The notes beneath the pieces were generated by a model that saw only the letters and a list, made by a program, of their open reading frames with translations, did no database searches and had not been told where the DNA came from. This document shows, piece after piece, positions 5,790 to 32,723 of a stretch of DNA of 43,206 nt (position 1 is its first letter; each line of letters begins with the position of its first letter). This DNA comes from a virus. A program made the position numbers and the translations under genes. Where the stretch lies: UHGV virus genome UHGV-1355782. One strand, given 5' to 3'.

Positions 5790-5816
5790 AAGGCCCCTTA
5801 CGGGGCCTTAGTTTTA
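5790..5816. terminator. bidirectional rho-independent terminator
   Basis: AAGGCCCC-ttac-GGGGCCTT with T-run on plus strand and A-run upstream (T-run on minus strand). Confidence 0.7.
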
Positions 5817-6098
5817 TTGCTTTCCTAATGCTTTCTTAATTGCTCTGCTGGCCTGATTTAATGGATGGTCTTCATGGCAATCATCGGAGGATACCTCGCA
5901 AACATCCTCGACGTAATCGCGAAGCTGGCGAAGTGCTTCGAGTAACTCTGGTGCCGAGGAAATAAGTTTTGCGTTAGCCAATTTTACTGAGTCATTTTCC
6001 CGCACACTCATTACCTCGGCCACATAAACATGTCCTGCCCAGATAGCCGTTCCGCGATTAACCCATGCACCGTCTGTACCTTTAAATTTGTGTGTCAT
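5814..6098 (-). CDS. hypothetical protein (94 aa), moron-like
   Basis: ATG 6098 with RBS AGGAG 7 nt upstream on minus strand; own operator-containing promoter; ends at bidirectional terminator. Confidence 0.5.
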   Translation of the reverse strand: MTHKFKGTDGAWVNRGTAIWAGHVYVAEVMSVRENDSVKLANAKLISSAPELLEALRQLRDYVEDVCEVSSDDCHEDHPLNQASRAIKKALGKQ

Positions 6099-6125
6099 TT
6101 TCCATCTCCTGTTTAAGTTAACTGA

Positions 6126-6154
6126 ATAGTACCCTATTATATTGGTGTGTGCAA
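6126..6154 (-). promoter_or_regulatory. class-1 promoter TTGCAC-N17-TACTAT with embedded palindromic operator (6124-6139)
   Basis: minus-strand -35 TTGCAC, 17-bp spacer, -10 TACTAT; spacer carries TAATAG-N4-CTATTC; same element at 15189, 37750, 39057. Confidence 0.5.
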
Positions 6155-6220
6155 ACTATTTGTTTACGTATTCCTGTTATTCCACCTAATTGTAAATGTT
6201 GGAATAAACTATTCGAATAG

Positions 6221-11310: not shown

Positions 11311-11723
11311 TGGGCTATTTCGAGGACTTAACAAAAGCGTTCGATGTGCCGCTGGTAGCCTTCGGAACAACCAACGGCATCAAGGTTGCGCTTGAAAACA
11401 TCGACACACCGACGTCAACCGACACACCGTATCTGGCAAGTTACATGTTACTTGCGGACACCGAGCAGGCGGATTTGTTCTTCACGGAACAACGCTCTGG
11501 TATTTATCAGGTTGACATTAACTACGCATCGGTGAAAGGTAGCGCGCCAATCAATAAAATGGCAGACTTACTTAACACGGCGTTTAAAGCAGGTAAGTCA
11601 TTTTCACGTAACGACATCTGCGCCGAGGTTCAATCGGTTAGCCTGGGGCCGCTGATTGTAGAAAACGGATGGGCCAAACGGCCATTGTCAATTAACTTTA
11701 TCGCATTCACCAAGAGGCTGTGA
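11307..11723 (+). CDS. tail terminator/completion protein (putative)
   Basis: position immediately upstream of major tail protein; coupled start. Confidence 0.4.
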   Translation: MMGYFEDLTKAFDVPLVAFGTTNGIKVALENIDTPTSTDTPYLASYMLLADTEQADLFFTEQRSGIYQVDINYASVKGSAPINKMADLLNTAFKAGKSFSRNDICAEVQSVSLGPLIVENGWAKRPLSINFIAFTKRL

Positions 11724-11725
11724 AT

Positions 11726-12763
11726 ATGGCTACAACTCCTTTTAAGGGCGCGAATACCGCGCAATTCTATGTGGCGGAAGTGACCCCGGGCGTAACACCA
11801 AGTAACCCGGTCTGGTCGCCGTTGCGAAACACCGGCGGCGTTCCTGCGGTAACCCGCGACGCGCTGACCTCCAACGAACTGGACGGCAGCCGTGAAACCA
11901 CATCCATCCGCACCGGTAACAAGCAGGTTAGTGGTGAGTACGCAATCGAACTTAGCTCACGTAGCCAGGATGATTTCCTCGCAGGCGCGATGACGTCTAC
12001 GTGGCAGGATGGCGTAACCTTAACTGCGGTAGGTATTACGGTAGACCCGGTAGCGAAAACCTTCACCCGCGCCGCCGGTAGCTTCATTACCGATGGCGTT
12101 GAAGTCGGCGACCTTCTGTACTTCGACGGCTTAACCGGAGACAACGCCAAGCCGTTTATCGTTACCGCGGTAACTGCTACGGTTGTTACGGGTGCGGGTA
12201 TCCAACACACCCTGACCGCCGAAGGCCCTATCGAGACCGACGGTAAAACGGGTGACAAGCTGGAAACCGGTAACGCGTGTAAGACATTCTCCATCCTGAC
12301 GTGGTTCAAAGGACAGTGCGGGAACCCGGACGCGTACATGTTGACCAAAGGTGTGGAAATCTCCGGTTTTACTATCGAGCAAGCCGTAAATGCGATGGTA
12401 ACCGGCAGCTTCCCATTCATCGGTCTGAGTCAGGAGATTCTTACCGCGGCGCCAGCAGGTTCCGACTTCTCCCAGGTCACATTCACTGACGAGCCGTTCT
12501 CTTCTGTAGATGTGTCTGTGTTCGACGGTTCTACGCCGTTGCGTTGCGATACTCTGACCATCACCAACGACAACGGTGCTTCCGCGCAGTTCGAACTCGG
12601 CAACAGTAGCGTCGCGTTCGTGGAACGTGGTCGCGCAGCTAACACCTTCTCCATCTCTGGTAAGCTGTACGACATGGCGATGATTCAGAAGTTTATCAAC
12701 GAGCAGCAGGTAGAGATTAACTCTATTCTGGCGGGGGTAAACGGGCTATGTCTTTCAGTTTAA
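11726..12763 (+). CDS. major tail protein (putative)
   Basis: ATG 11726 with RBS AAGAGG (ORF track starts at GTG 11720); Thr/Gly/Val-rich; followed by strong terminator. Confidence 0.55.
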   Translation: MATTPFKGANTAQFYVAEVTPGVTPSNPVWSPLRNTGGVPAVTRDALTSNELDGSRETTSIRTGNKQVSGEYAIELSSRSQDDFLAGAMTSTWQDGVTLTAVGITVDPVAKTFTRAAGSFITDGVEVGDLLYFDGLTGDNAKPFIVTAVTATVVTGAGIQHTLTAEGPIETDGKTGDKLETGNACKTFSILTWFKGQCGNPDAYMLTKGVEISGFTIEQAVNAMVTGSFPFIGLSQEILTAAPAGSDFSQVTFTDEPFSSVDVSVFDGSTPLRCDTLTITNDNGASAQFELGNSSVAFVERGRAANTFSISGKLYDMAMIQKFINEQQVEINSILAGVNGLCLSV

Positions 12764-12898
12764 AACGCGCAGAGCTTACGGCGGTCACACCAGAAATATC
12801 TGGCCCGGAATCAATTACCCAAAGCATAGAAGGACAGTCCACAGGCAACCAGTATCAGTCGTCTATCGTAATTCAACGTATTAGTTACGTATAAAACT

Positions 12899-12923
12899 AA
12901 GGCCCCGAAAGGGGCCTTTTTCT
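12899..12923. terminator. bidirectional rho-independent terminator
   Basis: AAGGCCCC-gaaa-GGGGCCTT flanked by T-run downstream and A-run upstream. Confidence 0.7.
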
Positions 12924-13099
12924 TACTCACTTTTGAACGGCATTTCGTAGAAGTTAGTTAACTGGCCTCGGTCACTTCGTTCTGTCATTTCTTTCGAGGC
13001 CTCTTCCTTGCTACCGACAGCATAAATATCAACCCACTCATCCCATTCTTCGTCATATACACGGATTACATATATTGTTTTCATAATATTTTCACTCAT
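12923..13099 (-). CDS. hypothetical protein (58 aa)
   Basis: ATG 13099 with RBS AGGAG 8 nt upstream; last gene of antisense island. Confidence 0.4.
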   Translation of the reverse strand: MSENIMKTIYVIRVYDEEWDEWVDIYAVGSKEEASKEMTERSDRGQLTNFYEMPFKSE

Positions 13100-13322
13100 C
13101 AATATTACTCCTGTACTCCCGTAACTTCTCCAGACTTTCAATTGCTTCTGCTAAGTCGGTTCCGGTGTCTTTGTGACCGCGCAGACCCATACACAGCAGT
13201 TTCTTTAACGCATGCTGTAGCGCCGGGTCACGGATATCGAAGGCGCGTAGCACATCATAGACGTCTACTGTCATGGTGCTGCCGTGGGTGTTTGTCATTG
13301 TGCGGTTGTATTTTGAAGTCAT
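13092..13322 (-). CDS. hypothetical protein (76 aa)
   Basis: ATGA coupling to upstream HNH gene; RBS GAGAGG. Confidence 0.45.
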   Translation of the reverse strand: MTSKYNRTMTNTHGSTMTVDVYDVLRAFDIRDPALQHALKKLLCMGLRGHKDTGTDLAEAIESLEKLREYRSNIDE

Positions 13323-13792
13323 TTTCCGTGCCTCTCAGTAAAGTCTTTCTTTTCTTTGTAAAAACCTTCGGCATATCTTACGGCGTCTTCTTTGTTGTCG
13401 AAACGCTTGGCTATTCTATTTCCGTTATATTGAATTTGAACTACCCACTTACCGTTATATGTTTTACTAACCCCGGTAACGCCAGACGAGTTATCCCTGC
13501 GCTTTGCTGCATTTTTGCAGTTTATGCGCCGGTCACACAGTCGAAGATTCTCTATACGGTTATCGCTTTTCACACCGTTTATATGGTCAATCTCCTTGCC
13601 TTCTGGTATAGCTCCGTTAAACATTTCCCATATAATTCTGTGGGCGAATGTCATTTTTGACCCTAGTTTAGTTCTTACATACCCTCGTTGGTCCACATAC
13701 CCTACTTTACGTCCTTTCGGGTACTTAGGGTTTACGCTGTCCTTAGCGTAAAGATTCCCGTTTTCGTATTCGTAAACATCATTCCATGTCAA
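13319..13792 (-). CDS. HNH homing endonuclease with AP2-like DNA-binding domain
   Basis: HNH motif EIDHINGVKSDNRIENLRL; C-terminal AP2-like GVTGVSKTYNGKWVVQIQYNG; TTG start coupled (TTGA) to upstream gene. Confidence 0.75.
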   Translation of the reverse strand: MTWNDVYEYENGNLYAKDSVNPKYPKGRKVGYVDQRGYVRTKLGSKMTFAHRIIWEMFNGAIPEGKEIDHINGVKSDNRIENLRLCDRRINCKNAAKRRDNSSGVTGVSKTYNGKWVVQIQYNGNRIAKRFDNKEDAVRYAEGFYKEKKDFTERHGK

Positions 13793-14928
13793 TTTATACC
13801 CCCTATCATTTCTGGTGATATTGTTAAACGTGCCACCTCCCCATATTCGGCACTATAAGTTATCACGTTAGCACTACGACCGGACATCCAGCCCCCTCGC
13901 GATGCGTAAGCATCTTTCGCAGCCAGGGTTCGGTGTTGTTCGACTACCATATTGCGGCTTTCTACTAATTTCTGATGATGTAGATGCCCTACATGAGCGT
14001 AGCTGTATGTGCTTTCTCCAAAAGCCTTACGGAATTTAGAAATCATTACTGACTCTATGGCGTCGAATCTCGCACGGTGTCCATGATGCATGAATAGCGT
14101 AGTTTTCCCGTGCTGGACCATCTTGTATACGTCTGGGGAGGTGTCCACAAATACGCGAGGTTCGTTGTCGTACAATGTACAGAACATTTCGGCGAGCCAT
14201 ACAGAGCCTACAGGGTCGTGGTTACCTTGAACTATTAAAAGTTTGACTGTGTGATGTTTAACAAGCGCCATATCGACAACACGACGCACCATACGAATCA
14301 TGTAGCGAACTAGTTTCTGATAGCGAGTATCGGCGTCTAACACATGACGCGACTCAGGGGTAACGGCATCAAGACTATCGAAGTGCGCGAAGTCGCCCAG
14401 CAGGTTAATAACCCCAGTCCCCGCATCCGGTGCTTTCTGAAACGCGGCATCGAACCAGCGGGAGAACAGGTCTTCTGCAATCTTCATATCCCAGTCATCG
14501 CCGCTCTCGTCAGCCCATGCAAGCATACCGAGATGGAAATCAGATACAGTGTAGAGATTGAGCAGTTTATCGTCACGTTTGGCGCGAACAGGTTTAACAG
14601 GCGCAACCGGTGTAATCTCTGACTTCATACCTTCAATCACGGCTTTCATCAACTCGACCTGACGTTCGGCATCGGTGTCGGTCTTAACCCATTGCAACTT
14701 AGTGTTGCCAAACTCGTCCACCAGGGACGACGTCCCTTTAATCTTGTAGCCGTCCGGTACAAGGTGACTAACATCACGCCCGTGACCTACGCCTTTCTTT
14801 GCCAGCTTCGCTTTACGGATACGAATTACGCGGTCTGAGATGCCGTATTTACGGGCGATGTCTACATTCTTCATCCCGGCGTTCAATTCTTCCTGTAACT
14901 GTTCGTCGGTTATTTTCTTCTGGGCCAT
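13789..14928 (-). CDS. HTH-domain protein fused to calcineurin-like metallophosphoesterase
   Basis: N-terminal HTH (VDIARKYGISDRVIRIRKAK); metallophosphatase motifs LLGDFAHFD, VQGNHD, HHGH; RBS GAGGAAG. Confidence 0.7.
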   Translation of the reverse strand: MAQKKITDEQLQEELNAGMKNVDIARKYGISDRVIRIRKAKLAKKGVGHGRDVSHLVPDGYKIKGTSSLVDEFGNTKLQWVKTDTDAERQVELMKAVIEGMKSEITPVAPVKPVRAKRDDKLLNLYTVSDFHLGMLAWADESGDDWDMKIAEDLFSRWFDAAFQKAPDAGTGVINLLGDFAHFDSLDAVTPESRHVLDADTRYQKLVRYMIRMVRRVVDMALVKHHTVKLLIVQGNHDPVGSVWLAEMFCTLYDNEPRVFVDTSPDVYKMVQHGKTTLFMHHGHRARFDAIESVMISKFRKAFGESTYSYAHVGHLHHQKLVESRNMVVEQHRTLAAKDAYASRGGWMSGRSANVITYSAEYGEVARLTISPEMIGGIN

Positions 14929-14966
14929 GCTTACTTCCTCGTGTTTAGGATTTGTCCTATACTAGC

Positions 14967-15158
14967 TCACTTCTCGTTAACATTCGAGTTGCACGCCCAG
15001 ATTAAAATAAATACCCACGGCAGCAGAACCCAACCAAGAAACAGGTTAGCCATAAATATTGCCAACTTCGCTTTATGGTTGCGGAAATACGCAACCAGGA
15101 AAGGCGCGAAATAAGCGAGAAGTGCAAACAGAATTAAGGAAACTGGTAAACTTGACAT
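14967..15158 (-). CDS. small membrane protein, superinfection-immunity-like (Imm family-like)
   Basis: two TM segments with motif NLFLGWVLLPWVFILIWA; RBS AAGGGG before ATG 15158 (ORF track starts 15173). Confidence 0.5.
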   Translation of the reverse strand: MSSLPVSLILFALLAYFAPFLVAYFRNHKAKLAIFMANLFLGWVLLPWVFILIWACNSNVNEK

Positions 15159-15188
15159 TTTAAACCCCTTCATTGTTGGTGTAAGTGA

Positions 15189-15217
15189 ATAGTACCCTAT
15201 TATATTGGGGTGTGCAA
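15189..15217 (-). promoter_or_regulatory. class-1 promoter TTGCAC-N17-TACTAT with palindromic operator (15187-15202)
   Basis: near-identical to element at 6126-6154; directly upstream of antisense island. Confidence 0.5.
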
Positions 15218-15325
15218 GTAATGTGATAGAATAATTTTGCGCCTAGTGTCGCACACGAAAAGCGGGTGGTTCCCGTCTGGCGCATTTACCTTTAACCTGT
15301 AACCTCTTAACCAAAGGATTAAAGA

Positions 15326-15745: not shown

Positions 15746-15921
15746 ACGCGCTGTACAGGTTCGCCACCTACGAGTTTGTGGATAAGCATAAAATCAGAGA
15801 GTTTGATTCTATAGCTGACGGTCACGAGCAGGCGCTTATCGCGATGGGTGTAATCGATAAGAAAAAAACGTGCAGCGCGACGGGGTGGGCCAGAATGCCC
15901 GCCCCTTTTTATATCCACCTT
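15721..15921 (+). other. candidate -1 programmed frameshift extension (GT-like) of tail chaperone
   Basis: -1 frame is open from 15721 (after TGA 15718-15720) to stop at 15922-15924; putative slippery heptamer G GAA AAG at 15736-15742 just before the G stop codon. Confidence 0.3.
15882..15912 (+). terminator. rho-independent terminator-like hairpin between chaperone and tape measure genes
   Basis: GGGGTGGGC-cagaat-GCCCGCCCC followed by TTTTTAT. Confidence 0.5.
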
Positions 15922-16103
15922 TGAGACGTATTGCGACATTAAGTTTACGCGACACGTGCGCAAGGACGCTGTAGTATTGTTTGCAAGAGAATCCGTTACG
16001 TGGCAAGACCTGAAAGCCTATCTCGATGTTACGCAAAAACAGCTTAGCCTGTTCGAGATAGACATTATCATGGGCTTAGAAGCAATCTTTGAAGGTAGAA
16101 ATC

Positions 16104-18374
16104 ATGGCTGATATCGCTAGCTTGATAGTACGAGTATCCGCAACCGGCGTCGATAAAGTCACATCACAACTGAACGGGCTTACTAAAGCCGCAGGCGCCG
16201 CCGCGGCTGCCGTCGTCAGTCTGGAAACCGCTAAGCAGGTGTTCAGCGCGCTGGTGGACTCCCAGCGCAACTTCGATAAGCTGAACTCCGGCCTAATCAC
16301 AATGACCGGGAGTGCTGAGAACGCGGCTAAGGCTTTCAGCGTCCTGCAACAGTTCGCGAAAGAAACCCCATACGGGCTTAACCAGGCGGTGGAAGGCTTT
16401 ACTAAGCTGGTGGCTCTGGGTCTGAACCCCAGCAAAGAAGCGTTAATCTCCTACGGCAACACCGCAGCGGCTATGGGTAAAGACCTTAATCAGATGATTG
16501 AGGCCGTGGCGGACGCCAGTACCTTTGAGTTTGAGCGGCTGAAAGAGTTCGGCATTAAGTCGTCACAGCAGGCAGATACAGTTTCGTTCACGTTCCGCGG
16601 CGTTACCACCACGGTTAAAAAGAACTCCGAAGAGATTCAGAAATACCTGCTAAACATCGGCAATACTGATTTCGCCGGGGCGATGGAGACGCGCTCGAAG
16701 ACATTAGATGGTCAGTTGTCGAGCCTCGCCGACTCCTTCGACGGCCTTGTTCTTGCCGTAGCGCAATCAGGTTTTGGCGACGCCGTAGGCGAGCAAGCTG
16801 CAACAGCGGAAGATGCTATCACGTCACTCACCGACGCCATAGCGTCTAATGAGATAGTCGCCACGCTCCAGGATTGGGTGACACTGTTCAATGAATCGTT
16901 CAAGTTTATTTCTGATGCCTTGAACGACCTGGCATTTGACACCGAGGACAAATCCGCAGATATGTCAGACTCGCTGGGAACTATCCCTGATGCCATCAGG
17001 GAGTGGTTGCCTGACATCCAGCAGACATTCCACGAGGTTATCGCGTGGTTCCAGCGTATTGACGATTACGCCGTAGCGTTAGGTCAGACCCTTGCTGATG
17101 TGTTTGACCCGAGCAAAACGGCAGCGCTCACATTTAAAAACCTTACCGCAGAGGCTGATGCCGCATACGATGCCAGCATAAAACGGGCGGAGGCCGAGTC
17201 GCAGGCCATTACCAACAGGTCTAAGCAGCGTAAGAAAGAAATTGAGGAACAACGCAAGCAGTATGATGAGCGCAAGAAGCAAGAGATTGACTTAGCCAGC
17301 CTTGTTAATAAAAAGGGTGAAAATGGCGGAGCCGGAAACACCAACGACAAAGACGCGAAAGCCGCGGCTAAGAAAGCGGAGCAATTGCGTAAACAGGCGC
17401 AAGATTACCTCGATACTCTGGCCCGTCAGAATAACGACGAGTTAAAGGCTATTGACGCGCAGGAACAGCAGAAACTGGCTAAAGCAAAAGAGTTCTACAG
17501 CCAGGGCGCGTTGTCGCTGAAAGAATACGAGCAAGCAAAAACGGCTATTGTCCTCGAAGCCGGGCAAGCACGGCAGGAAGAGCTGGATAAGCGAGAGAAA
17601 GAACGGCAGGAAAAGCAACAGAAAGGTGACGACTTCATGGCTCAGATTATGGGCCAGAACGCTACTGAGCTTGAGCTTCTCGACATCCAGGAACAGCAGA
17701 AACTGGCGGTAGCCGATAAATACCGCGAACAGGGTCTGATTAACGAGGAACAGTATCAGGCGGCGCTTAACGCTATAAATGAGCAGTATGCCACGAAACG
17801 TGCAGATGCTTTAGGTAGTTCTTTCGGTGACATGGCGGCTAATGCTAAAACTGCATTTGGCGAGGCGTCCACCGCGTATAAAGCGTTCGCTATTGCACAG
17901 GCCACTATCGCCACGTACACATCGGCTATTGAGGCATATAAGTCAACGGCTGCCATCCCTGTTGTCGGCCCATTCCTGGCGCCGGTTGCCGCAGCTACTG
18001 CCGTTGCCGCGGGGCTGGCTAATATCGCCAAAATCCGCTCGGCACGTGAGCAGGGCGGTCAGTTATCAGCGGGGCAGATGTCTACCATCGCAGAACGCGG
18101 CAAACCGGAAGTTATCATGCCTGCTGGCGCATCGCGCGTACGAACTGCGCAGCAGATGAAAGAGATTATGGGGCAAAACGGCGGCCAGTCCGGCGGTGAT
18201 AACGTCACTATAGTTAATAACACTACGGGGCGCGTAGATTCTGCTGTAACAGAACGTGATGACGAAGGGCGTTTACGTATTATAATCAGTGAAACAGTAG
18301 CGTCGCAGTTACAGGATAACAACTCACCGATTTCTAAAGCTCGCCGCTCTACTCGCGGTCAGCCGGGGTATTAA
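16104..18374 (+). CDS. tail tape measure protein
   Basis: about 757 aa, Ala/Gln/Glu-rich with long coiled-coil segments; ATG 16104 (ORF track starts at TTG 16089). Confidence 0.8.
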   Translation: MADIASLIVRVSATGVDKVTSQLNGLTKAAGAAAAAVVSLETAKQVFSALVDSQRNFDKLNSGLITMTGSAENAAKAFSVLQQFAKETPYGLNQAVEGFTKLVALGLNPSKEALISYGNTAAAMGKDLNQMIEAVADASTFEFERLKEFGIKSSQQADTVSFTFRGVTTTVKKNSEEIQKYLLNIGNTDFAGAMETRSKTLDGQLSSLADSFDGLVLAVAQSGFGDAVGEQAATAEDAITSLTDAIASNEIVATLQDWVTLFNESFKFISDALNDLAFDTEDKSADMSDSLGTIPDAIREWLPDIQQTFHEVIAWFQRIDDYAVALGQTLADVFDPSKTAALTFKNLTAEADAAYDASIKRAEAESQAITNRSKQRKKEIEEQRKQYDERKKQEIDLASLVNKKGENGGAGNTNDKDAKAAAKKAEQLRKQAQDYLDTLARQNNDELKAIDAQEQQKLAKAKEFYSQGALSLKEYEQAKTAIVLEAGQARQEELDKREKERQEKQQKGDDFMAQIMGQNATELELLDIQEQQKLAVADKYREQGLINEEQYQAALNAINEQYATKRADALGSSFGDMAANAKTAFGEASTAYKAFAIAQATIATYTSAIEAYKSTAAIPVVGPFLAPVAAATAVAAGLANIAKIRSAREQGGQLSAGQMSTIAERGKPEVIMPAGASRVRTAQQMKEIMGQNGGQSGGDNVTIVNNTTGRVDSAVTERDDEGRLRIIISETVASQLQDNNSPISKARRSTRGQPGY

Positions 18375-24386: not shown

Positions 24387-24400
24387 CGTAAGAAGTGATT

Positions 24401-24424
24401 AGGCCCCAAACGGGGCCTTTTCTC
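24401..24424 (+). terminator. rho-independent terminator after tailspike
   Basis: AGGCCCC-aaac-GGGGCCT followed by TTTCTC. Confidence 0.65.
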
Positions 24425-27548: not shown

Positions 27549-29753
27549 TTACTTGGCATAACGCATCATCTCCGCGCCTTCTGCTACAAGAGGGAACCCC
27601 TCGGCCCACTCCGGCAATGCGCACATTAATTTTTCCAGTTCGGCCACCGTGTACTCAGGTGTGTCGGGAGTTTCACATACCAGTTCATCGTGTACCGAAA
27701 GCACGATGGGGTACCCGCCACCCTCAACATTAATCATCGCATACGCGAGTAAATCACGACACAACGCCTGGACAATGTTTTCGCAGGCTTTGCCGCCATG
27801 GGTGTACAGGGTAGTCCATTGGCGGGTTAACTGGTTTTCACCCTGATACTTGATTCGCACATCCGTGTTTACCCGTCCGCCTTCGTCTGTTTCCTTTGTC
27901 ACAGTCACACTAACGCCTATTCCTGGATACGAGAGGATACGGCCTGACGGCAGCTCCATACACAACCACCAACCAGGAACCTTCCTGCCGGATGAATCAA
28001 ATTCTACAGTACGCCATATACGGATAGCCCTTTCCCCATTCCTGCGCAAGTGTGCCCCCGCCCAAAATTCACGGCCAGGATTACGCACAGCGGCTAAAAT
28101 TCCGTCTTTAAGGTCGCGCCAGAACGCTACTGTTTCCGGGTGTGACTCGCGCCACATACGCTTGATAGCATCACAAGTACGCCATACTTTTTTATCAAGA
28201 ATATACGATGGCCTATCGTCCTTTTCACCTGGATGTGGGGGGCGCTTGGCTTCCTGGATGCGCGCCCATTCATATCCTCTCGCGGTAGCGGCCCAGATGT
28301 GGTCAGGGAAAGTCCCGTCCATTGTTTTTGCCATCTCAATAAGGTCAAGACCTAAGTTTTTAGCAAACGTAACGAACGCTCCGACACCCCCCTCGTAGCC
28401 GAGGCCCAGTTCGCAAGCCTTGCCTATCTGTCTGATTTCCTTAAAGTTTTTCTTAATATCGTCAGGGTCCATGCCAAACATCTTACCTGCGGTTACACAG
28501 TAAATATCCAGTCCGGCACGGAACGTATCGAGCGCGGTTTCTTCTCCTGCTAACCACGCTAACCCACGACCTTCGACGTTAGAGTAATCAGCTACGACAA
28601 ACTTGTGCCCGGCTTCCGGTATGATGCAGCTACGGACCGTCGATGCCGTCAGCTTGGCTACGTCAAATCGGCGGTGAGCACGACCCTTAAGTAACGCTGA
28701 AATGCCTTTATCCAGTTCATCATCATGATAGTACCCGCGGGCCAGGTTCTGCGGCTGAAAGCCTTTACCCGCCCACCGCAAAGTACGTTTTGCCCCGCCG
28801 TACTGTAAACAACCGCGGCGTCGGTCGTCCGACGAGCGGCCCAACAGCAGCGGGTTATATTTCGTTGACGCTGTGGACGCGGCCCCGAGGCGCATTTCGA
28901 TAATCGTGCGGGCGTCGTCAGGTAAATCATCGTCCACCAACAGGTCGTTAAGCGTCGACTTCTGCGCATTGTGTATGTGGTGCGCTGGGGCAAGTTCACG
29001 CAGAATCGGCAGAAAGTCTTTACCCGTAAGCGAGCCGCCGTATTTGCGTTGGGCTTCTTCCTGTAACTGTGCTTTGTGTTTCTCCACGGCTTCAATCGCG
29101 GCTTCCGCCAGTGCAACGTCAACCTTAAACCCACGGTCATTGATTAACTGGTCCAGTTCCAGTACACGGTCTTCAAACTCAGAGTTACCCCACCGCGGAA
29201 GCTTATGGAAGACTTCACGCATAGCAGTAATGTCACTCACGGCGTACTTGATGAACAGCGCCCACTCGTCAGGGTGTGTTTCGGCGGTGTAGCGGCGAAT
29301 TTTGTAGTTCTTCGGTGTCGGTTTAGAGAAACGCTGAATCAGCGCCTTGCCGCGTTTGTCTTTCGCATTATCAGCGGACACGCCAAGCACTTCACACAGC
29401 GCATCAAGTGAACCTGGCAGCGCGTGACGAAACGCCCAAATCATCGTGTCAATGGTGTTGCTTACCGGTATATCGAAGCCCCAGCAGTGTTTCATGATTA
29501 GGCGATCGAACATTAAAAAGTTATGGCCCACGATTTTCATACGTCCACGCATAACATTACGGAGAGCCACACGGAGGCTTATCGGCATTACTGATTCGGA
29601 AGTGCAATCCCATACTTCTACAGGACCGTCATCAACGGCATACGTACAAATTATAACCTCTGTCGTTGGGTGCTCCGCATACGCATACGACCCGACTTTC
29701 TTTAAGTCTGCTTCGGAGAATGTCTCGGTATCCAGGTACAATAAACTAGTCAT
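27549..29753 (-). CDS. DNA polymerase, family A, with N-terminal 3'-5' exonuclease domain
   Basis: Exo I-like LYLDTETFS; pol motif A DYSNVEGRGLAWLAGEE; motif B RQIGKACELGLGYEGG; motif C VHDELV. Confidence 0.85.
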   Translation of the reverse strand: MTSLLYLDTETFSEADLKKVGSYAYAEHPTTEVIICTYAVDDGPVEVWDCTSESVMPISLRVALRNVMRGRMKIVGHNFLMFDRLIMKHCWGFDIPVSNTIDTMIWAFRHALPGSLDALCEVLGVSADNAKDKRGKALIQRFSKPTPKNYKIRRYTAETHPDEWALFIKYAVSDITAMREVFHKLPRWGNSEFEDRVLELDQLINDRGFKVDVALAEAAIEAVEKHKAQLQEEAQRKYGGSLTGKDFLPILRELAPAHHIHNAQKSTLNDLLVDDDLPDDARTIIEMRLGAASTASTKYNPLLLGRSSDDRRRGCLQYGGAKRTLRWAGKGFQPQNLARGYYHDDELDKGISALLKGRAHRRFDVAKLTASTVRSCIIPEAGHKFVVADYSNVEGRGLAWLAGEETALDTFRAGLDIYCVTAGKMFGMDPDDIKKNFKEIRQIGKACELGLGYEGGVGAFVTFAKNLGLDLIEMAKTMDGTFPDHIWAATARGYEWARIQEAKRPPHPGEKDDRPSYILDKKVWRTCDAIKRMWRESHPETVAFWRDLKDGILAAVRNPGREFWAGAHLRRNGERAIRIWRTVEFDSSGRKVPGWWLCMELPSGRILSYPGIGVSVTVTKETDEGGRVNTDVRIKYQGENQLTRQWTTLYTHGGKACENIVQALCRDLLAYAMINVEGGGYPIVLSVHDELVCETPDTPEYTVAELEKLMCALPEWAEGFPLVAEGAEMMRYAK

Positions 29754-30219
29754 GGCAATAAAATTCCTTATGCAGTTTTTCTCTTAATTTCTTTACAGCG
29801 CTTTCTGCTTCTTCAAGAGTTCCGTAGCTACCAGCGTTATAACTTTTGTAGTTAAAATGTACACGCCCATAAAACCGGTTGCCGTTTTTAACTACTCCCT
29901 TAACTCCCGTTCTAGCTCCCTTATTTTTAGCGTTTCGCACATTATCCGCTGTGGTTGCTTTCCTTAGGTTAGAAATCCTATTGTCTAACCTGTCACGGTT
30001 TATATGGTCAAGAGGCCCCTCAGGCCATTCGCCGTACTCGAAAAACCAAGCAAGCCTATGGGCCATGTAGTATCTACCCATGTAGGGTATGCGCCAGTAT
30101 CCGCTACTATTCATACATCCCGCAATGTCTCCGGGTCTCCCTCGTCTGTACGTAGGTTGTATCCATGTGAATATTCCGGTTTCTCGGTTATAACTAAGAA
30201 AATCTTTTATATGTTCCAT
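29746..30219 (-). CDS. HNH homing endonuclease with AP2-like domain
   Basis: HNH motif DHINRDRLDNRISNLR and AP2-like GVKGVVKNGNRFYGRVHF; start taken as ATG 30219 because the annotated TTG start at 30243 lies inside a terminator hairpin. Confidence 0.65.
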   Translation of the reverse strand: MEHIKDFLSYNRETGIFTWIQPTYRRGRPGDIAGCMNSSGYWRIPYMGRYYMAHRLAWFFEYGEWPEGPLDHINRDRLDNRISNLRKATTADNVRNAKNKGARTGVKGVVKNGNRFYGRVHFNYKSYNAGSYGTLEEAESAVKKLREKLHKEFYCHD

Positions 30220-30230
30220 TCTGACTCCGG

Positions 30231-30254
30231 TAAAAAGGCCCAATGAAGGGCCTT
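30231..30254 (-). terminator. rho-independent terminator (minus strand) after SSB-like gene
   Basis: minus-strand hairpin AAGGCCC-ttcatt-GGGCCTT followed by TTTTT. Confidence 0.6.
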
Positions 30255-30960: not shown

Positions 30961-31461
30961 TTAACTATAATAGTTCGCTATTCGGTAGTCAACTTCTTTT
31001 AGCAAATTACTTTCAAAATTCTTTCTCGCCACGTTAGCCTGTTCAGGAGTTTCGAATAGTCCAAGGTAACGATATTGCCCGTTTACGGTAATTCCAGCCT
31101 GCCATTTACCATGGCTTTTGCGCCAAAACACGCCAGTGTACCCGCTTTTGTTATGACTTCTTCCGGTTTGAATGCCGCCTTTAGCCACATTATCGCTATG
31201 AGCGATTAACTGGAGATTCTCTATCCTGTCATCATTTCTTATCGCATTTATATGGTCCACCTCAAACCCTTCAGGTATAGGGCCGTTGTGGTACTCCCAT
31301 ATTAAACGGCTTCTTTGGTAGGACTTACGATTAATGTAGATCTGCACATACCCTGAATGGTGGAGGCTTCCTGCCTCCTGACCAGCTAACATTCTTTTTG
31401 TATTGTGGCGATAGATTAGTTTCCCGTTTTCATAAATGAAACGCTCCCGAACTAAACTCAT
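30961..31461 (-). CDS. HNH homing endonuclease with AP2-like domain
   Basis: HNH motif DHINAIRNDDRIENLQL, AP2-like GYTGVFWRKSHGKWQAGI; ATGA-coupled start at 31461; C-terminus ...IANYYS. Confidence 0.7.
   Translation of the reverse strand: MSLVRERFIYENGKLIYRHNTKRMLAGQEAGSLHHSGYVQIYINRKSYQRSRLIWEYHNGPIPEGFEVDHINAIRNDDRIENLQLIAHSDNVAKGGIQTGRSHNKSGYTGVFWRKSHGKWQAGITVNGQYRYLGLFETPEQANVARKNFESNLLKEVDYRIANYYS
30964..30992 (-). promoter_or_regulatory. class-2 promoter TTGACT-N17-TATAGT with palindromic operator (30968-30983)
   Basis: same architecture as 27062-27090; lies inside the 3' end of the HNH gene 30961-31461. Confidence 0.5.
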
Positions 31462-32723
31462 TCCAAATCCTCCTCTGTTACCTGATTCCACTCAGGCCGT
31501 TTGTCATCTGCCGTTGTGACGCACGGCGCTCCTGGCTTACGAGTAATGAAGTCTTTCAGTTCTTCTTCCGGCACAACTTTAACAGCTTCGGTTGGCGTCA
31601 TGAGCACTACCTTTTGCAGCATAGTACCGTACTTCTCGAATACCGCATCAGTGTCTTTCCATGCACGATTACCCGGGCGACCTTCAACCAGCTTGTACCC
31701 CGGAACTTTCTTACCCGAATGCAGCGCGGCAGCCATAGCTTTCTCAACCTTGTCGATGTGCTGGCGCAACAACGGCAACTTCTCATACTCAGCTACGAGT
31801 TGCTCAGGTGTCATTTCAAGAGCAAAGTCGTCCTCCAGTTCTTCCGCCAGTACCGCGTTAACGGTTTTTGTACGCGCTGCGCACTGTTCTGAGAACCGAC
31901 ACCACTGACAACCATCTACCGACGGCTTGAAGTCCGACGCTTTCAGGTTCTTCTTACCGCGGAAATACGCATCAAGCGCTAACAGTGCGCGCTTCTGGGC
32001 GAACTTAGCGAACAGTTCCAGACCTTCAACCGAGATGTCCCACTCCGACGCACCGCCCGCGTACGGCTGGAAGATGACCAGACGAACGGTTGTTATGTTA
32101 TAACGTCTCTTGAGTCGGCGATAAACACCGAGAGCGTAAAGCATAAGCTGCTTGTTTTCTTTCGCTTCGACACGATGCCGTCCGGTTTTCAGGTCGCCGA
32201 TAATTAACATGTGCTCATCAGTGTTGGCCAGTTCCTGCACGGCAACAAGGTCAGCGGTTCCGAAGGTTTGAATTTCTTCTTGCCTCCCACCGGGGCTATG
32301 GATGTATCCCGGATGCAATACCTCAGTAAGATTGACACGCATTTCCAGCTTGGCGTAAGTCGCTACATCGATAATCGGTTTACAGTAGTCGGTATACTTG
32401 CGCACCTGCTCAATCATGTCAGCCGTAATCAGTACCGCACCTTTCATCGGACTGATTAGTGCCTTAATCTGTCCTTTACCCTCATCCAGCACGTACGCAC
32501 CGACTTCACGCTCTAACGGCAGCGCAGTGCCTTTGATGTACTGGTTTAGATGTACCTCAGCTATTGTGTGACACGCTGTCCCCGTAACGGCGGATTTACC
32601 CGACGTGTTAGGAATATCTTTTTCACAAGCCAGCGATGCGGCGCAACTTAGCCACTTCTTAGCGCCTGACGGCGACAGTAAAGCGTGTACGTCGTTATTG
32701 CCGCCGCGTTCCTTTAAAATCAT
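31458..32723 (-). CDS. PD-(D/E)XK exonuclease, Cas4/RecB-like with cysteine cluster (putative)
   Basis: LSPSGAKKWLSC N-terminal motif; D...IIGDLKTG nuclease motif; C-terminal CQWCRFSEQC; start ATG 32723 (ATGA coupling). Confidence 0.55.
   Translation of the reverse strand: MILKERGGNNDVHALLSPSGAKKWLSCAASLACEKDIPNTSGKSAVTGTACHTIAEVHLNQYIKGTALPLEREVGAYVLDEGKGQIKALISPMKGAVLITADMIEQVRKYTDYCKPIIDVATYAKLEMRVNLTEVLHPGYIHSPGGRQEEIQTFGTADLVAVQELANTDEHMLIIGDLKTGRHRVEAKENKQLMLYALGVYRRLKRRYNITTVRLVIFQPYAGGASEWDISVEGLELFAKFAQKRALLALDAYFRGKKNLKASDFKPSVDGCQWCRFSEQCAARTKTVNAVLAEELEDDFALEMTPEQLVAEYEKLPLLRQHIDKVEKAMAAALHSGKKVPGYKLVEGRPGNRAWKDTDAVFEKYGTMLQKVVLMTPTEAVKVVPEEELKDFITRKPGAPCVTTADDKRPEWNQVTEEDLE

What the first reader, a model, noticed from the sequence alone, without database searches (positions are those of the whole stretch)
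12923..15217. Antisense five-gene accessory island inserted between the major tail protein and tail chaperone genes
A minus-strand module interrupts the otherwise collinear structural operon and is bracketed by a bidirectional terminator (12899-12923) and its own operator-bearing promoter (15189-15217). It encodes an Imm-like small membrane protein, an HTH-metallophosphoesterase fusion, an HNH-AP2 homing endonuclease and two small ORFs. The position, orientation and autonomous promoter/terminator are typical of a moron or superinfection-exclusion/anti-defence cassette.
Basis: partly seen in the sequence, partly recalled or inferred. Interest (0 to 1): 0.65.

Follow-up and report, generated by a model that had tools for sequence, protein, structure and literature searches.

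The report
Antisense cargo cassette in phage tail operon
A backwards-facing five-gene block in the tail genes of a Kagunavirus-like coliphage is a known, swappable cargo slot with its own promoter and terminator, carrying an exclusion-type membrane protein, a widespread nuclease-like enzyme, a selfish homing endonuclease and two small unknown genes; it is real but largely ordinary.

Summary
Five minus-strand genes (12923-15173) lie between the tail tube and tail chaperone genes. They are bounded by a strong two-way terminator hairpin (12899-18) and a sigma-70-like promoter (15187-15217).

The window is a Kagunavirus-like siphophage (Guernseyvirinae), and this block is already annotated in hundreds of relatives.

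The block is not one recently inserted unit. It is a cargo slot whose parts vary independently:
- **First gene:** Imm in 33 of 48 related loci, another small envelope protein in 15.
- **Distal genes:** ten different combinations.
- **HTH-metallophosphoesterase:** absent from this slot in some relatives, and in one lineage it sits in a second antisense slot.

That second slot also exists in this window (5790-6154), with an almost identical promoter 31-mer and the same terminator hairpin.

The HNH gene is a free-standing homing endonuclease. It and the adjacent ~550 nt of the phosphoesterase gene are 91-100% identical to a Salmonella Jerseyvirus, while the flanks fall to 52-86%.

The phosphoesterase has a complete active site and folds most like DP1, Mre11 and SbcD nucleases. 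Its function is unknown, as are orf76 and orf58.

No anti-defence function is shown. Novelty is low to moderate.

The parts
12899..12918 (.). Two-way intrinsic terminator hairpin between the convergent tail tube gene and orf58
   Evidence: -16.3 and -19.2 kcal/mol, z-scores -4.0 and -4.8. The same hairpin occurs at 5790-5809, and with one mismatch at 24400-24419. It is present after the last cargo gene in nearly all related loci.
12923..13099 (-). orf58: 58-aa acidic protein of unknown function and optional cargo
   Evidence: ATG 13099 has an AGGAG Shine-Dalgarno and overlaps the orf76 stop by 8 nt. No Pfam or PHROG hit. Present in 8 of 48 loci. dN/dS 0.05-0.09.
13092..13322 (-). orf76: 76-aa protein of unknown function (phrog_2452), a stand-alone small phage gene
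   Evidence: phrog_2452, E 2e-36. tblastn finds it in 774 phage records, mostly as a short hypothetical ORF. No similarity to the K1G P-loop or PNK proteins. dN/dS 0.01-0.16.
13319..13792 (-). Free-standing HNH_3 homing endonuclease gene with a TTG start, inserted exactly at the phosphoesterase/orf76 junction
   Evidence: HNH_3, E 5e-22. Absent at this junction in ZCEC5, Bas74 and K1G. Present at the same site in only 4 of 48 loci. A co-conversion tract is seen. The TTGA and ATGA overlaps keep translational coupling.
13320..14340 (-). Mobile tract made of the HNH gene plus the 3' ~550 nt of the phosphoesterase gene
   Evidence: 91-100% nt identity to Salmonella Jerseyvirus CTH7 inside the tract, against 52-86% in the phosphoesterase 5' part and 68-85% in orf76. 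HNH-less Kagunaviruses show the reverse pattern: 84-100% (mostly about 90% or more) over the first ~500 nt and 68-82% over the last ~600 nt of the gene.
13789..14928 (-). HTH-metallophosphoesterase, 379 aa: N-terminal sigma70-r4/LuxR-type HTH, a beta-hairpin linker domain, and a dinuclear metallophosphoesterase domain
14967..15158 (-). Imm-like protein of 63 aa with two hydrophobic segments (68 aa if started at 15173)
   Evidence: PF14373, E 7.5e-13. phrog_1039 'immunity to superinfection'. Two hydrophobic segments. Replaced by other small envelope proteins in 15 of 48 loci.
15187..15217 (-). Conserved promoter 31-mer TTGCACACCCCAATATAATAGGGTACTATTC (-35 TTGCAC, 17-nt spacer, -10 TACTAT; an overlapping TATAAT lies at 15199-15204)
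   Evidence: A second copy differing at one position lies at 6124-6154. It is conserved upstream of whichever first cargo gene is present.
5790..6154 (-). Second antisense cargo cassette outside the finding: same terminator hairpin (5790-5809), a 94-aa ORF (5814-6098, phrog_1273) and the same promoter 31-mer (6124-6154)
   Evidence: Relatives carry other cargo here, such as an adenine methyltransferase, or the phosphoesterase itself in L039 and L067.

Best explanation
The region is one of two antisense cargo slots embedded in the structural gene block of Guernseyvirinae siphophages. Each slot is a self-contained transcription unit: a conserved sigma-70-type promoter, exchangeable genes, and a GC-rich hairpin that also terminates the convergent structural transcript.

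In this phage the tube/chaperone slot holds five genes.
1. **Imm-like protein.** A small protein with two hydrophobic segments. By analogy with T4 Imm, and with the other small envelope proteins that replace it in relatives, it most likely protects the infected cell against superinfection. This step is inferred.
2. **HTH-metallophosphoesterase.** It has an intact two-metal site and a fold closest to the DP1, Mre11 and SbcD nucleases. It most likely acts as a DNA-directed phosphodiesterase or nuclease in phage DNA metabolism. This step is inferred. The enzyme is itself cargo that moves between slots.
3. **HNH homing endonuclease.** A free-standing gene that entered exactly at the phosphoesterase/orf76 junction. 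It brought about 550 nt of a foreign phosphoesterase 3' allele with it, as shown by the co-conversion tract. It presumably cuts HNH-less alleles during co-infection; this step is inferred.
4. **orf76 and orf58.** Two small conserved proteins of unknown function.

The five genes are neighbours by shared location, not a five-part machine.
For: **Taxonomic placement and prior annotation:**

**Independent variation of parts:**
- Imm is present in 33 of 48 loci.
- Ten distal-gene combinations exist. Only 1 of 48 loci (L007) matches the window.
- Relatives found through the chaperone gene lack the phosphoesterase here. Their gap holds a small antisense TM or signal-peptide ORF, sometimes with further small ORFs.
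- In L039 and L067 the phosphoesterase sits antisense between the Hoc-like and spanin genes, with the same terminator hairpin.

**Second cassette in the window:** the promoter 31-mer differs at one position and the terminator is the same.

**Promoter conservation:** conserved in 37 of 37 Kagunavirus loci whatever the first gene is.

**Other support:**
- Low G+C of the cargo.
- Purifying selection on the small ORFs.
- The co-conversion tract around the HNH gene, and precise junctions.
- Phosphoesterase motifs and fold. H182 is nearly invariant within a 'GDxxH' second motif; the resemblance of that motif to Mre11 rests on my own knowledge.
- A published RNA-seq of a Kagunavirus groups the Imm gene with DNA polymerase and methylase genes rather than with the flanking structural genes (PMC12645636). 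This evidence is weak.
Against: - No function was tested, so promoter and terminator activity are predicted only.
- The Imm family assignment says nothing about which phages are excluded.
- Foldseek ranks a cyclic-nucleotide phosphodiesterase (Rv0805) first. All PDB matches are distant, with TM 0.3-0.45 and 10-18% identity, so the substrate class is uncertain.
- The Pfam Metallophos hits fall below the gathering scores.
- The phosphoesterase is present in this slot in every Kagunavirus and Jerseyvirus locus sampled, so within those genera it behaves like a core gene rather than cargo.
- The sequence pattern taken as a co-conversion tract could also come from ordinary homologous recombination without endonuclease action.
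Confidence: 0.72

Rival explanations
1. The five genes form one recently acquired island that works together as a superinfection-exclusion or anti-defence cassette.
For: It has its own promoter and terminator. It has low G+C. It carries an Imm family member. Its position between structural modules is typical of morons.
Against: - The genes vary independently, and the exact combination is seen in only 1 of 48 loci.
- The phosphoesterase is found in 2013 phage records in other contexts.
- The HNH gene is a selfish insertion with its own co-conversion tract.
- No PADLOC hit other than homing endonuclease models.
- The slot itself is shared by every relative sampled.
Confidence: 0.12
2. The block is essentially a conserved early nucleic-acid repair operon. 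The phosphoesterase works with a polynucleotide 3'-phosphatase and a P-loop kinase to heal broken DNA or RNA ends, for example tRNA cut by anticodon nucleases. In this phage only the phosphoesterase remains of that operon.
For: - In 18 of 48 loci the phosphoesterase is followed directly by a HAD_PNKP phosphatase (E 6.7e-20) and a P-loop protein.
- The phosphoesterase-phosphatase pairing recurs in one more distant phage (L062, 53% identity).
- Metallophosphoesterase domains do perform 2',3'-cyclic phosphate healing in bacterial Pnkp and lambda phosphatase (PMC2190708, PMC3675462).
Against: - The window has no phosphatase, kinase or ligase in the block.
- 30 of 48 loci also lack the pair, so the phosphoesterase functions without them.
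- The HTH domain points to DNA.
Confidence: 0.1
3. The phosphoesterase is a cyclic (oligo)nucleotide phosphodiesterase that destroys defence second messengers of the CBASS, Pycsar, Thoeris or type III CRISPR kinds. Together with Imm this would make the block a true counter-defence unit.
For: The Foldseek top hit is the cyclic-nucleotide phosphodiesterase Rv0805 (E 7e-8). The family is very widespread in phages annotated or described as lytic.
Against: - The 'GDxxH' second motif is nuclease-like (and my own knowledge).
- The conserved N-terminal DNA-binding HTH has no obvious role in a nucleotide hydrolase.
- No literature support was found.
Confidence: 0.08

Closest known systems
Morons of lambdoid and other temperate phages (promoter-gene-terminator units inserted between conserved genes)
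   Same: An autonomous promoter and terminator, insertion at a boundary between structural modules, lower G+C than the flanks, presence/absence variation between relatives, and cargo that includes envelope and exclusion-type proteins.
   Different: The relatives of this phage are described as lytic, so there is no lysogenic expression. The slot is fixed and shared across a subfamily, while its content is swapped. There are two slots using nearly the same promoter and terminator sequences, and a 1.1-kb enzyme gene moves between them.
Phage T4 Imm (superinfection immunity protein, Pfam PF14373)
   Same: A family HMM match above the gathering score, small size and two hydrophobic segments.
   Different: 63 aa against 83 aa in T4 (T4 length from my own knowledge). 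It is in a siphophage with a different DNA-delivery apparatus. Activity and target phages are untested. It is interchangeable with unrelated signal-peptide or TM proteins in relatives.
Free-standing homing endonucleases of T4-like and ICP1 phages (Seg and Mob proteins; nuclease genes at boundaries of genetic exchange, PMC2330249, PMC10448857)
   Same: Intergenic insertion, patchy distribution at one fixed site, and a sharp block of high identity covering the endonuclease gene plus flanking sequence of the neighbouring gene.
   Different: It belongs to the HNH_3 class. The tract is one-sided, running into the phosphoesterase gene only, and links phages of two genera with different hosts (Escherichia and Salmonella). 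The cleavage site is unknown.
Mre11/SbcD and PolD DP1 nucleases (calcineurin-like metallophosphoesterase superfamily)
   Different: Sequence identity is only 12-16%. There is an extra N-terminal HTH and beta-hairpin domain. No Rad50/SbcC partner or polymerase subunit is present. No activity has been shown.

Membership tests
Imm_superinfect (PF14373, T4 Imm family) | Match to the family HMM above the curated gathering score | tested here: met
   48.3-48.6 bits against a cut-off of 27.9. phrog_1039, E 1e-22.
Imm_superinfect (PF14373, T4 Imm family) | Small protein with two membrane-spanning hydrophobic segments | tested here: met
   Two hydrophobic peaks in a 19-residue Kyte-Doolittle scan, up to 2.3 and 2.2. 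No dedicated topology predictor was run.
Imm_superinfect (PF14373, T4 Imm family) | Blocks DNA entry of superinfecting phage | not testable with these tools
   Needs expression of the gene and phage challenge.
Calcineurin-like metallophosphoesterase superfamily | Five-motif metal-binding signature: DxH, GDxx(D/H), GNH(D/E), H, GHxH | tested here: met
   The motifs read DFH, GDFAH, GNHD, HHGH and GHLH. D130, H132, G178, D179, N236, H237, H282, G283, G314 and H317 are invariant in 40 diverse homologues.
Calcineurin-like metallophosphoesterase superfamily | Pfam Metallophos or Metallophos_2 match above the gathering score | tested here: not met
   22.3 against 27 and 18.4 against 21.5 bits. This is a divergent subfamily, and 11 of 40 homologues hit at E<=0.01.
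Calcineurin-like metallophosphoesterase superfamily | Characteristic fold | tested here: met
Mre11/SbcD nuclease family | Cognate Rad50/SbcC coiled-coil ATPase encoded alongside | tested here: not met
   No such gene lies in the block or its flanks. The P-loop protein found in relatives is only 184-189 aa and has no SbcC-type Pfam hit.
Mre11/SbcD nuclease family | Exo- or endonuclease activity on DNA | not testable with these tools
   Needs a biochemical assay.
Free-standing homing endonuclease gene | Recognised endonuclease domain | tested here: met
   HNH_3, E 5e-22. PADLOC homing endonuclease models, E 3e-7.
Free-standing homing endonuclease gene | Presence/absence polymorphism at one precise site in otherwise collinear genomes | tested here: met
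   The insertion is exact at the phosphoesterase stop and orf76 start. It is present in 4 of 48 loci.
Free-standing homing endonuclease gene | Co-conversion of flanking sequence with the endonuclease gene | tested here: met
   91-100% identity to Jerseyvirus CTH7 across the HNH gene plus 550 nt of the phosphoesterase gene, against 52-86% outside.
Free-standing homing endonuclease gene | Site-specific cleavage of the endonuclease-less allele | not testable with these tools
   Needs in vitro cleavage or co-infection crosses.
HNH-AP2 architecture | AP2 DNA-binding domain (PF00847) C-terminal to the HNH domain | tested here: inconclusive
   No AP2 hit for this protein at E<=1. The only C-terminal hit is DUF2188, E 0.0016. 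The paralogue at 30964-31491, 38% identical, hits AP2 at 3.4e-5, below the gathering score.
Moron | Own promoter and terminator flanking the cargo | tested here: met
   Sequence-level evidence only.
Moron | Absent from this position in some close relatives | tested here: met
   This holds for every gene, including the phosphoesterase. The slot itself is never empty.
Moron | Expressed from the prophage to the benefit of the lysogen | tested here: not met
   The relatives of this phage are described in papers as lytic. No integrase or repressor was looked for in the window.

The most novel reading that the evidence does not exclude
Guernseyvirinae may carry a two-slot 'portable cassette' system. 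Near-identical promoter and terminator sequences at two sites in the structural operon would act as landing pads, letting cargo hop between slots and between genera. That cargo includes a 1.1-kb HTH-metallophosphoesterase, which could turn out to be an uncharacterised host-takeover or counter-defence enzyme. The family has 4537 clusters at 50% identity and no known function.
Probability: 0.2. Interest if true: 0.55.

Novelty: new member of a known kind. Interest (0 to 1): 0.28.

Why it matters
For annotation, the block should be read as a variable cargo slot, not as part of the tail machinery and not as one coherent defence island.

Guernseyvirinae phages are widely used in therapy and biocontrol work. 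Two fixed, self-contained, dispensable-looking slots would be natural places to look for host-range or exclusion determinants, and to insert engineered payloads.

The HNH tract is a clean example of endonuclease-linked exchange between Escherichia and Salmonella phages.

The HTH-metallophosphoesterase is one of the larger phage protein families still without an assigned function. Its movement between slots, and its frequent pairing with a polynucleotide phosphatase and kinase, give testable leads.

Tried and rejected
- **orf76 as a remnant of an ATPase gene.** PHROG matches covered only the C-terminal part of longer profiles. Rejected: there is no similarity to the K1G P-loop or PNK proteins. 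It is a stand-alone ~76-aa ORF in 774 phage records and is under strong purifying selection.
- **ATCACA-17-TATAAT as the main promoter** (the top scan hit). Its -35 hexamer is not conserved in the second copy or in the Jerseyvirus, whereas TTGCAC-17-TACTAT is. Both -10 candidates are kept as possible.
- **Sequence search of the phosphoesterase against the PDB.** Neither the single sequence nor a 40-sequence profile gave anything significant; the best hits were GerE at E 0.09 and SbcD at 0.2.
- **NCBIfam and PADLOC.** Nothing useful.
- **Pfam and PDB for orf76 and orf58.** Nothing.
- **BFVD fold search.** It returned only uncharacterised phage homologues.
- **afdb50 fold search.** The library was not available.
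- **Literature searches** for Kagunavirus or Drexlerviridae with phosphoesterase terms found no functional study.
- **The search for homologous proteins on the phosphoesterase.** It returned only sequences at least 93% identical, so the 50%-clustered library was used for diversity instead.
- **'Operator'.** The 18-bp imperfect palindrome has no support beyond belonging to the conserved 31-mer.
Full report
**1. What is there**

The window is a Kagunavirus-like siphophage of the Guernseyvirinae. A 4.4-kb query around the finding matches 421 phage records. The best matches reach about 88% identity: ZCEC5, GZMU_E2010, the K1G group and BASEL Bas74.

Five minus-strand ORFs fill the gap between the tail tube gene (PF18906, E 3e-33) and the tail assembly chaperone gene (phrog_15027). 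In order of transcription they are:
- **Imm:** 14967-15158 or 15173. PF14373 at 48 bits against a cut-off of 27.9.
- **Phosphoesterase:** 13789-14928, 379 aa, phrog_704, E 8e-163.
- **HNH_3 endonuclease:** 13319-13792, TTG start.
- **orf76:** 13092-13322.
- **orf58:** 12923-13099.

The genes are tightly coupled. The phosphoesterase stop and HNH start share TTGA. The HNH stop and orf76 start share ATGA. orf76 and orf58 overlap by 8 nt. Each start has a Shine-Dalgarno sequence.

Imm most likely begins at ATG 15158. That start has an AAGGGG Shine-Dalgarno and gives 63 aa, the length annotated in K1G.

orf76, orf58 and Imm have dN/dS of 0.01-0.26 against diverged alleles, so they are real genes.

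**2. Signals**

The terminator hairpin at 12899-12918 is strong on both strands, at -16.3 and -19.2 kcal/mol. No shuffle folds as well.

It contains TTGCAC-17-TACTAT and an overlapping perfect TATAAT.
- The 31-mer has a second copy at 6124-6154 that differs at one position. The chance expectation is 0.00.
- It occurs with at most 3 mismatches upstream of the first cargo gene in 37 of 37 Kagunavirus-type loci.
- In the Jerseyvirus CTH7 the equivalent is TTGCGC-17-TATTAT.
- The proposed 'operator' is only an imperfect palindrome (7 of 9 per half-site, my reading of the sequence). It is not conserved in the Jerseyvirus.

**3. Comparative anatomy**

I fetched 69 loci through the phosphoesterase and 30 through the chaperone, and classified their genes by tblastn. 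In 48 loci the phosphoesterase lies between the tube and chaperone genes.

*Promoter-proximal gene.* It is Imm in 33 of these loci. In the other 15 it is an unrelated small envelope protein:
- a ~108-aa signal-peptide protein;
- a TM protein;
- or a 114-aa signal-peptide protein followed by two small soluble ORFs.

*Distal cargo.* Ten combinations occur:

| Distal cargo | Loci (of 48) |
|---|---|
| orf76 alone | 14 |
| HAD_PNKP phosphatase + P-loop protein | 13 |
| HAD_PNKP phosphatase + P-loop protein + orf58 | 5 |
| orf76 + Rha/ANT protein | 5 |
| orf76 + orf58 | 2 |
| orf76 + a different HNH | 2 |
| HNH + orf76 | 2 |
| HNH + orf76 + orf58 (L007, same as the window) | 1 |
| HNH + orf76 + Rha/ANT (CTH7) | 1 |
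| none of these | 3 |

Some loci carry two copies of the terminator hairpin bracketing an extra gene.

*Relatives without the phosphoesterase here.* Relatives recovered through the chaperone gene, with 71-82% tube identity, have no phosphoesterase between tube and chaperone. Their gap holds a small antisense TM or signal-peptide ORF, sometimes with further small ORFs.

*The second slot.* In one of those lineages the phosphoesterase is 83% identical to the window's copy. There it sits antisense between the Hoc-like decoration gene and the Rz-like spanin gene, and it is followed by the same hairpin (L039, L067). That is the position of the window's own second cassette:
- hairpin at 5790-5809;
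- 94-aa phrog_1273 ORF at 5814-6098;
- promoter at 6124-6154.

Other relatives carry an adenine methyltransferase in that slot.

*Composition.* G+C is 41-50% in the block and 42-47% in the second slot, against 52-57% in the neighbouring structural genes.

Together these results show two fixed antisense cargo slots with exchangeable content. They do not show a single inserted five-gene island.

**4. The HNH gene**

ZCEC5, Bas74 and K1G have the phosphoesterase stop overlapping the next gene's ATG. The protein there ends ...SPEMLG*. In the window the 474-nt HNH gene sits exactly at that junction, and the phosphoesterase ends ...SPEMIGGIN*. The new codons supply the HNH ribosome-binding site.

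Binned identity shows a mobile tract:
- From about 14340 down to 13320, covering the 3' ~550 nt of the phosphoesterase gene plus the HNH gene, the window is 91-100% identical to Salmonella Jerseyvirus CTH7.
- Outside the tract, identity to CTH7 is 52-86% in the phosphoesterase 5' part and 68-85% in orf76.
- HNH-less Kagunaviruses show the reverse pattern. They are 84-100% identical (mostly about 90% or more) over the first ~500 nt of the gene and 68-82% over its last ~600 nt.

This is the signature described for free-standing homing endonucleases and for nuclease genes at exchange boundaries (PMC2330249, PMC10448857).

Two more HNH_3 paralogues lie at 30961-31491 and 29746-30243. The AP2 assignment is not confirmed for this copy.

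**5. The phosphoesterase**

The family is very large. It is found in 2013 phage records from Escherichia, Klebsiella, Salmonella, Vibrio, Campylobacter and Roseobacter-group phages (Rhodobacter, Ruegeria, Dinoroseobacter). It comprises 4537 clusters at 50% identity.

Outside Guernseyvirinae its neighbours differ:
- between a DNA methyltransferase and the lysis genes in a Drexlerviridae phage;
- between the lysis genes and the small terminase gene in Dhillonvirus;
- beside an endolysin gene and an HNH gene in Vibrio phages.

An alignment of 40 diverse members keeps all five metallophosphoesterase motifs invariant. H182 is nearly invariant within a 'GDxxH' second motif. Members hit Sigma70_r4_2, GerE and other HTH families at the N-terminus.

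The AlphaFold model has pLDDT 91. It shows three N-terminal helices, a beta-hairpin domain and the catalytic domain.
- Lower down are LpxH (13.8), Rv0805 (11.9) and protein phosphatases (about 9).
- Foldseek gives only distant, mixed hits.

A DNA-directed phosphodiesterase or nuclease is therefore the best guess, at roughly even odds. It is not a member of the Mre11/SbcD family proper, because no Rad50/SbcC partner is present.

**6. Other genes**

orf76 (phrog_2452) is a stand-alone small protein in 774 phage records of many types. It is not an ATPase remnant. orf58 has no family. The functions of both remain unknown.

**7. Verdict**

It is wrong about unity and recency, and no anti-defence role is shown.

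The arrangement is already annotated in many GenBank records.

What is modestly new here:
- the two-slot picture with a shared promoter and terminator;
- the movement of the phosphoesterase between slots;
- the cross-genus HNH tract.

All are instances of known phenomena, so interest is low to moderate.

Noticed in passing
window 5790-6154: There is a second antisense cassette in the head-gene region. It has the same hairpin terminator (5790-5809), a 94-aa ORF (5814-6098, phrog_1273, unknown function) and a promoter 31-mer (6124-6154) that differs from the one at 15187-15217 at one position. Relatives carry different cargo here, such as an adenine methyltransferase, or the HTH-phosphoesterase in L039 and L067.
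   Followed up: partly
window ~12744: The tail tube gene has a 1-nt deletion in a G-run (GGG against GGGG or GGTG in relatives). This splits it into 11720-12763 plus an out-of-frame, intact C-terminal ORF at 12748-12894. A sequencing error or a very recent frameshift is likely.
   Followed up: partly
window 15751-16108: The second chaperone ORF, the T part upstream of the tape measure gene, also changes frame relative to Bas74, ZCEC5 and ST20, somewhere in 15860-15915. This is near a G/C-rich hairpin at 15882-15905. Two frameshifts within 3.2 kb suggest homopolymer errors in the assembly.
   Followed up: no
window 29746-30243 and 30961-31491: Two further HNH_3 endonuclease paralogues, about 38% identical to the one in the finding, lie on the minus strand in the replication region. 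One has a weak AP2 hit.
   Followed up: no
window 24400-24419: A third copy of the terminator hairpin (TAGGCCCCAAACGGGGCCTT) lies at the convergent junction after the last + strand tail gene.
   Followed up: no
window 6160-6215; L039 3850-3920: Repeated GGAATAA / TTATTCC motifs lie just upstream of the slot-1 promoter. They are conserved between the window and the distant L039 and L067. They could be binding sites for a regulator.
   Followed up: no
L012, L025, L026, L035-L037, L063, L005 (CTH7): The terminator hairpin is duplicated on either side of an extra distal gene (a Rha/ANT protein or another HNH). This suggests that new cargo enters at the hairpin.
   Followed up: no
window 15240-15300: The segment GCGCCAGACGGGAACCACCCGCTTTTCG, between the cassette promoter and the chaperone gene, is conserved from Kagunavirus to Jerseyvirus. 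No + strand sigma-70 promoter for the chaperone and tape measure genes was found there. How downstream tail genes are transcribed past the antisense block is unclear.
   Followed up: no
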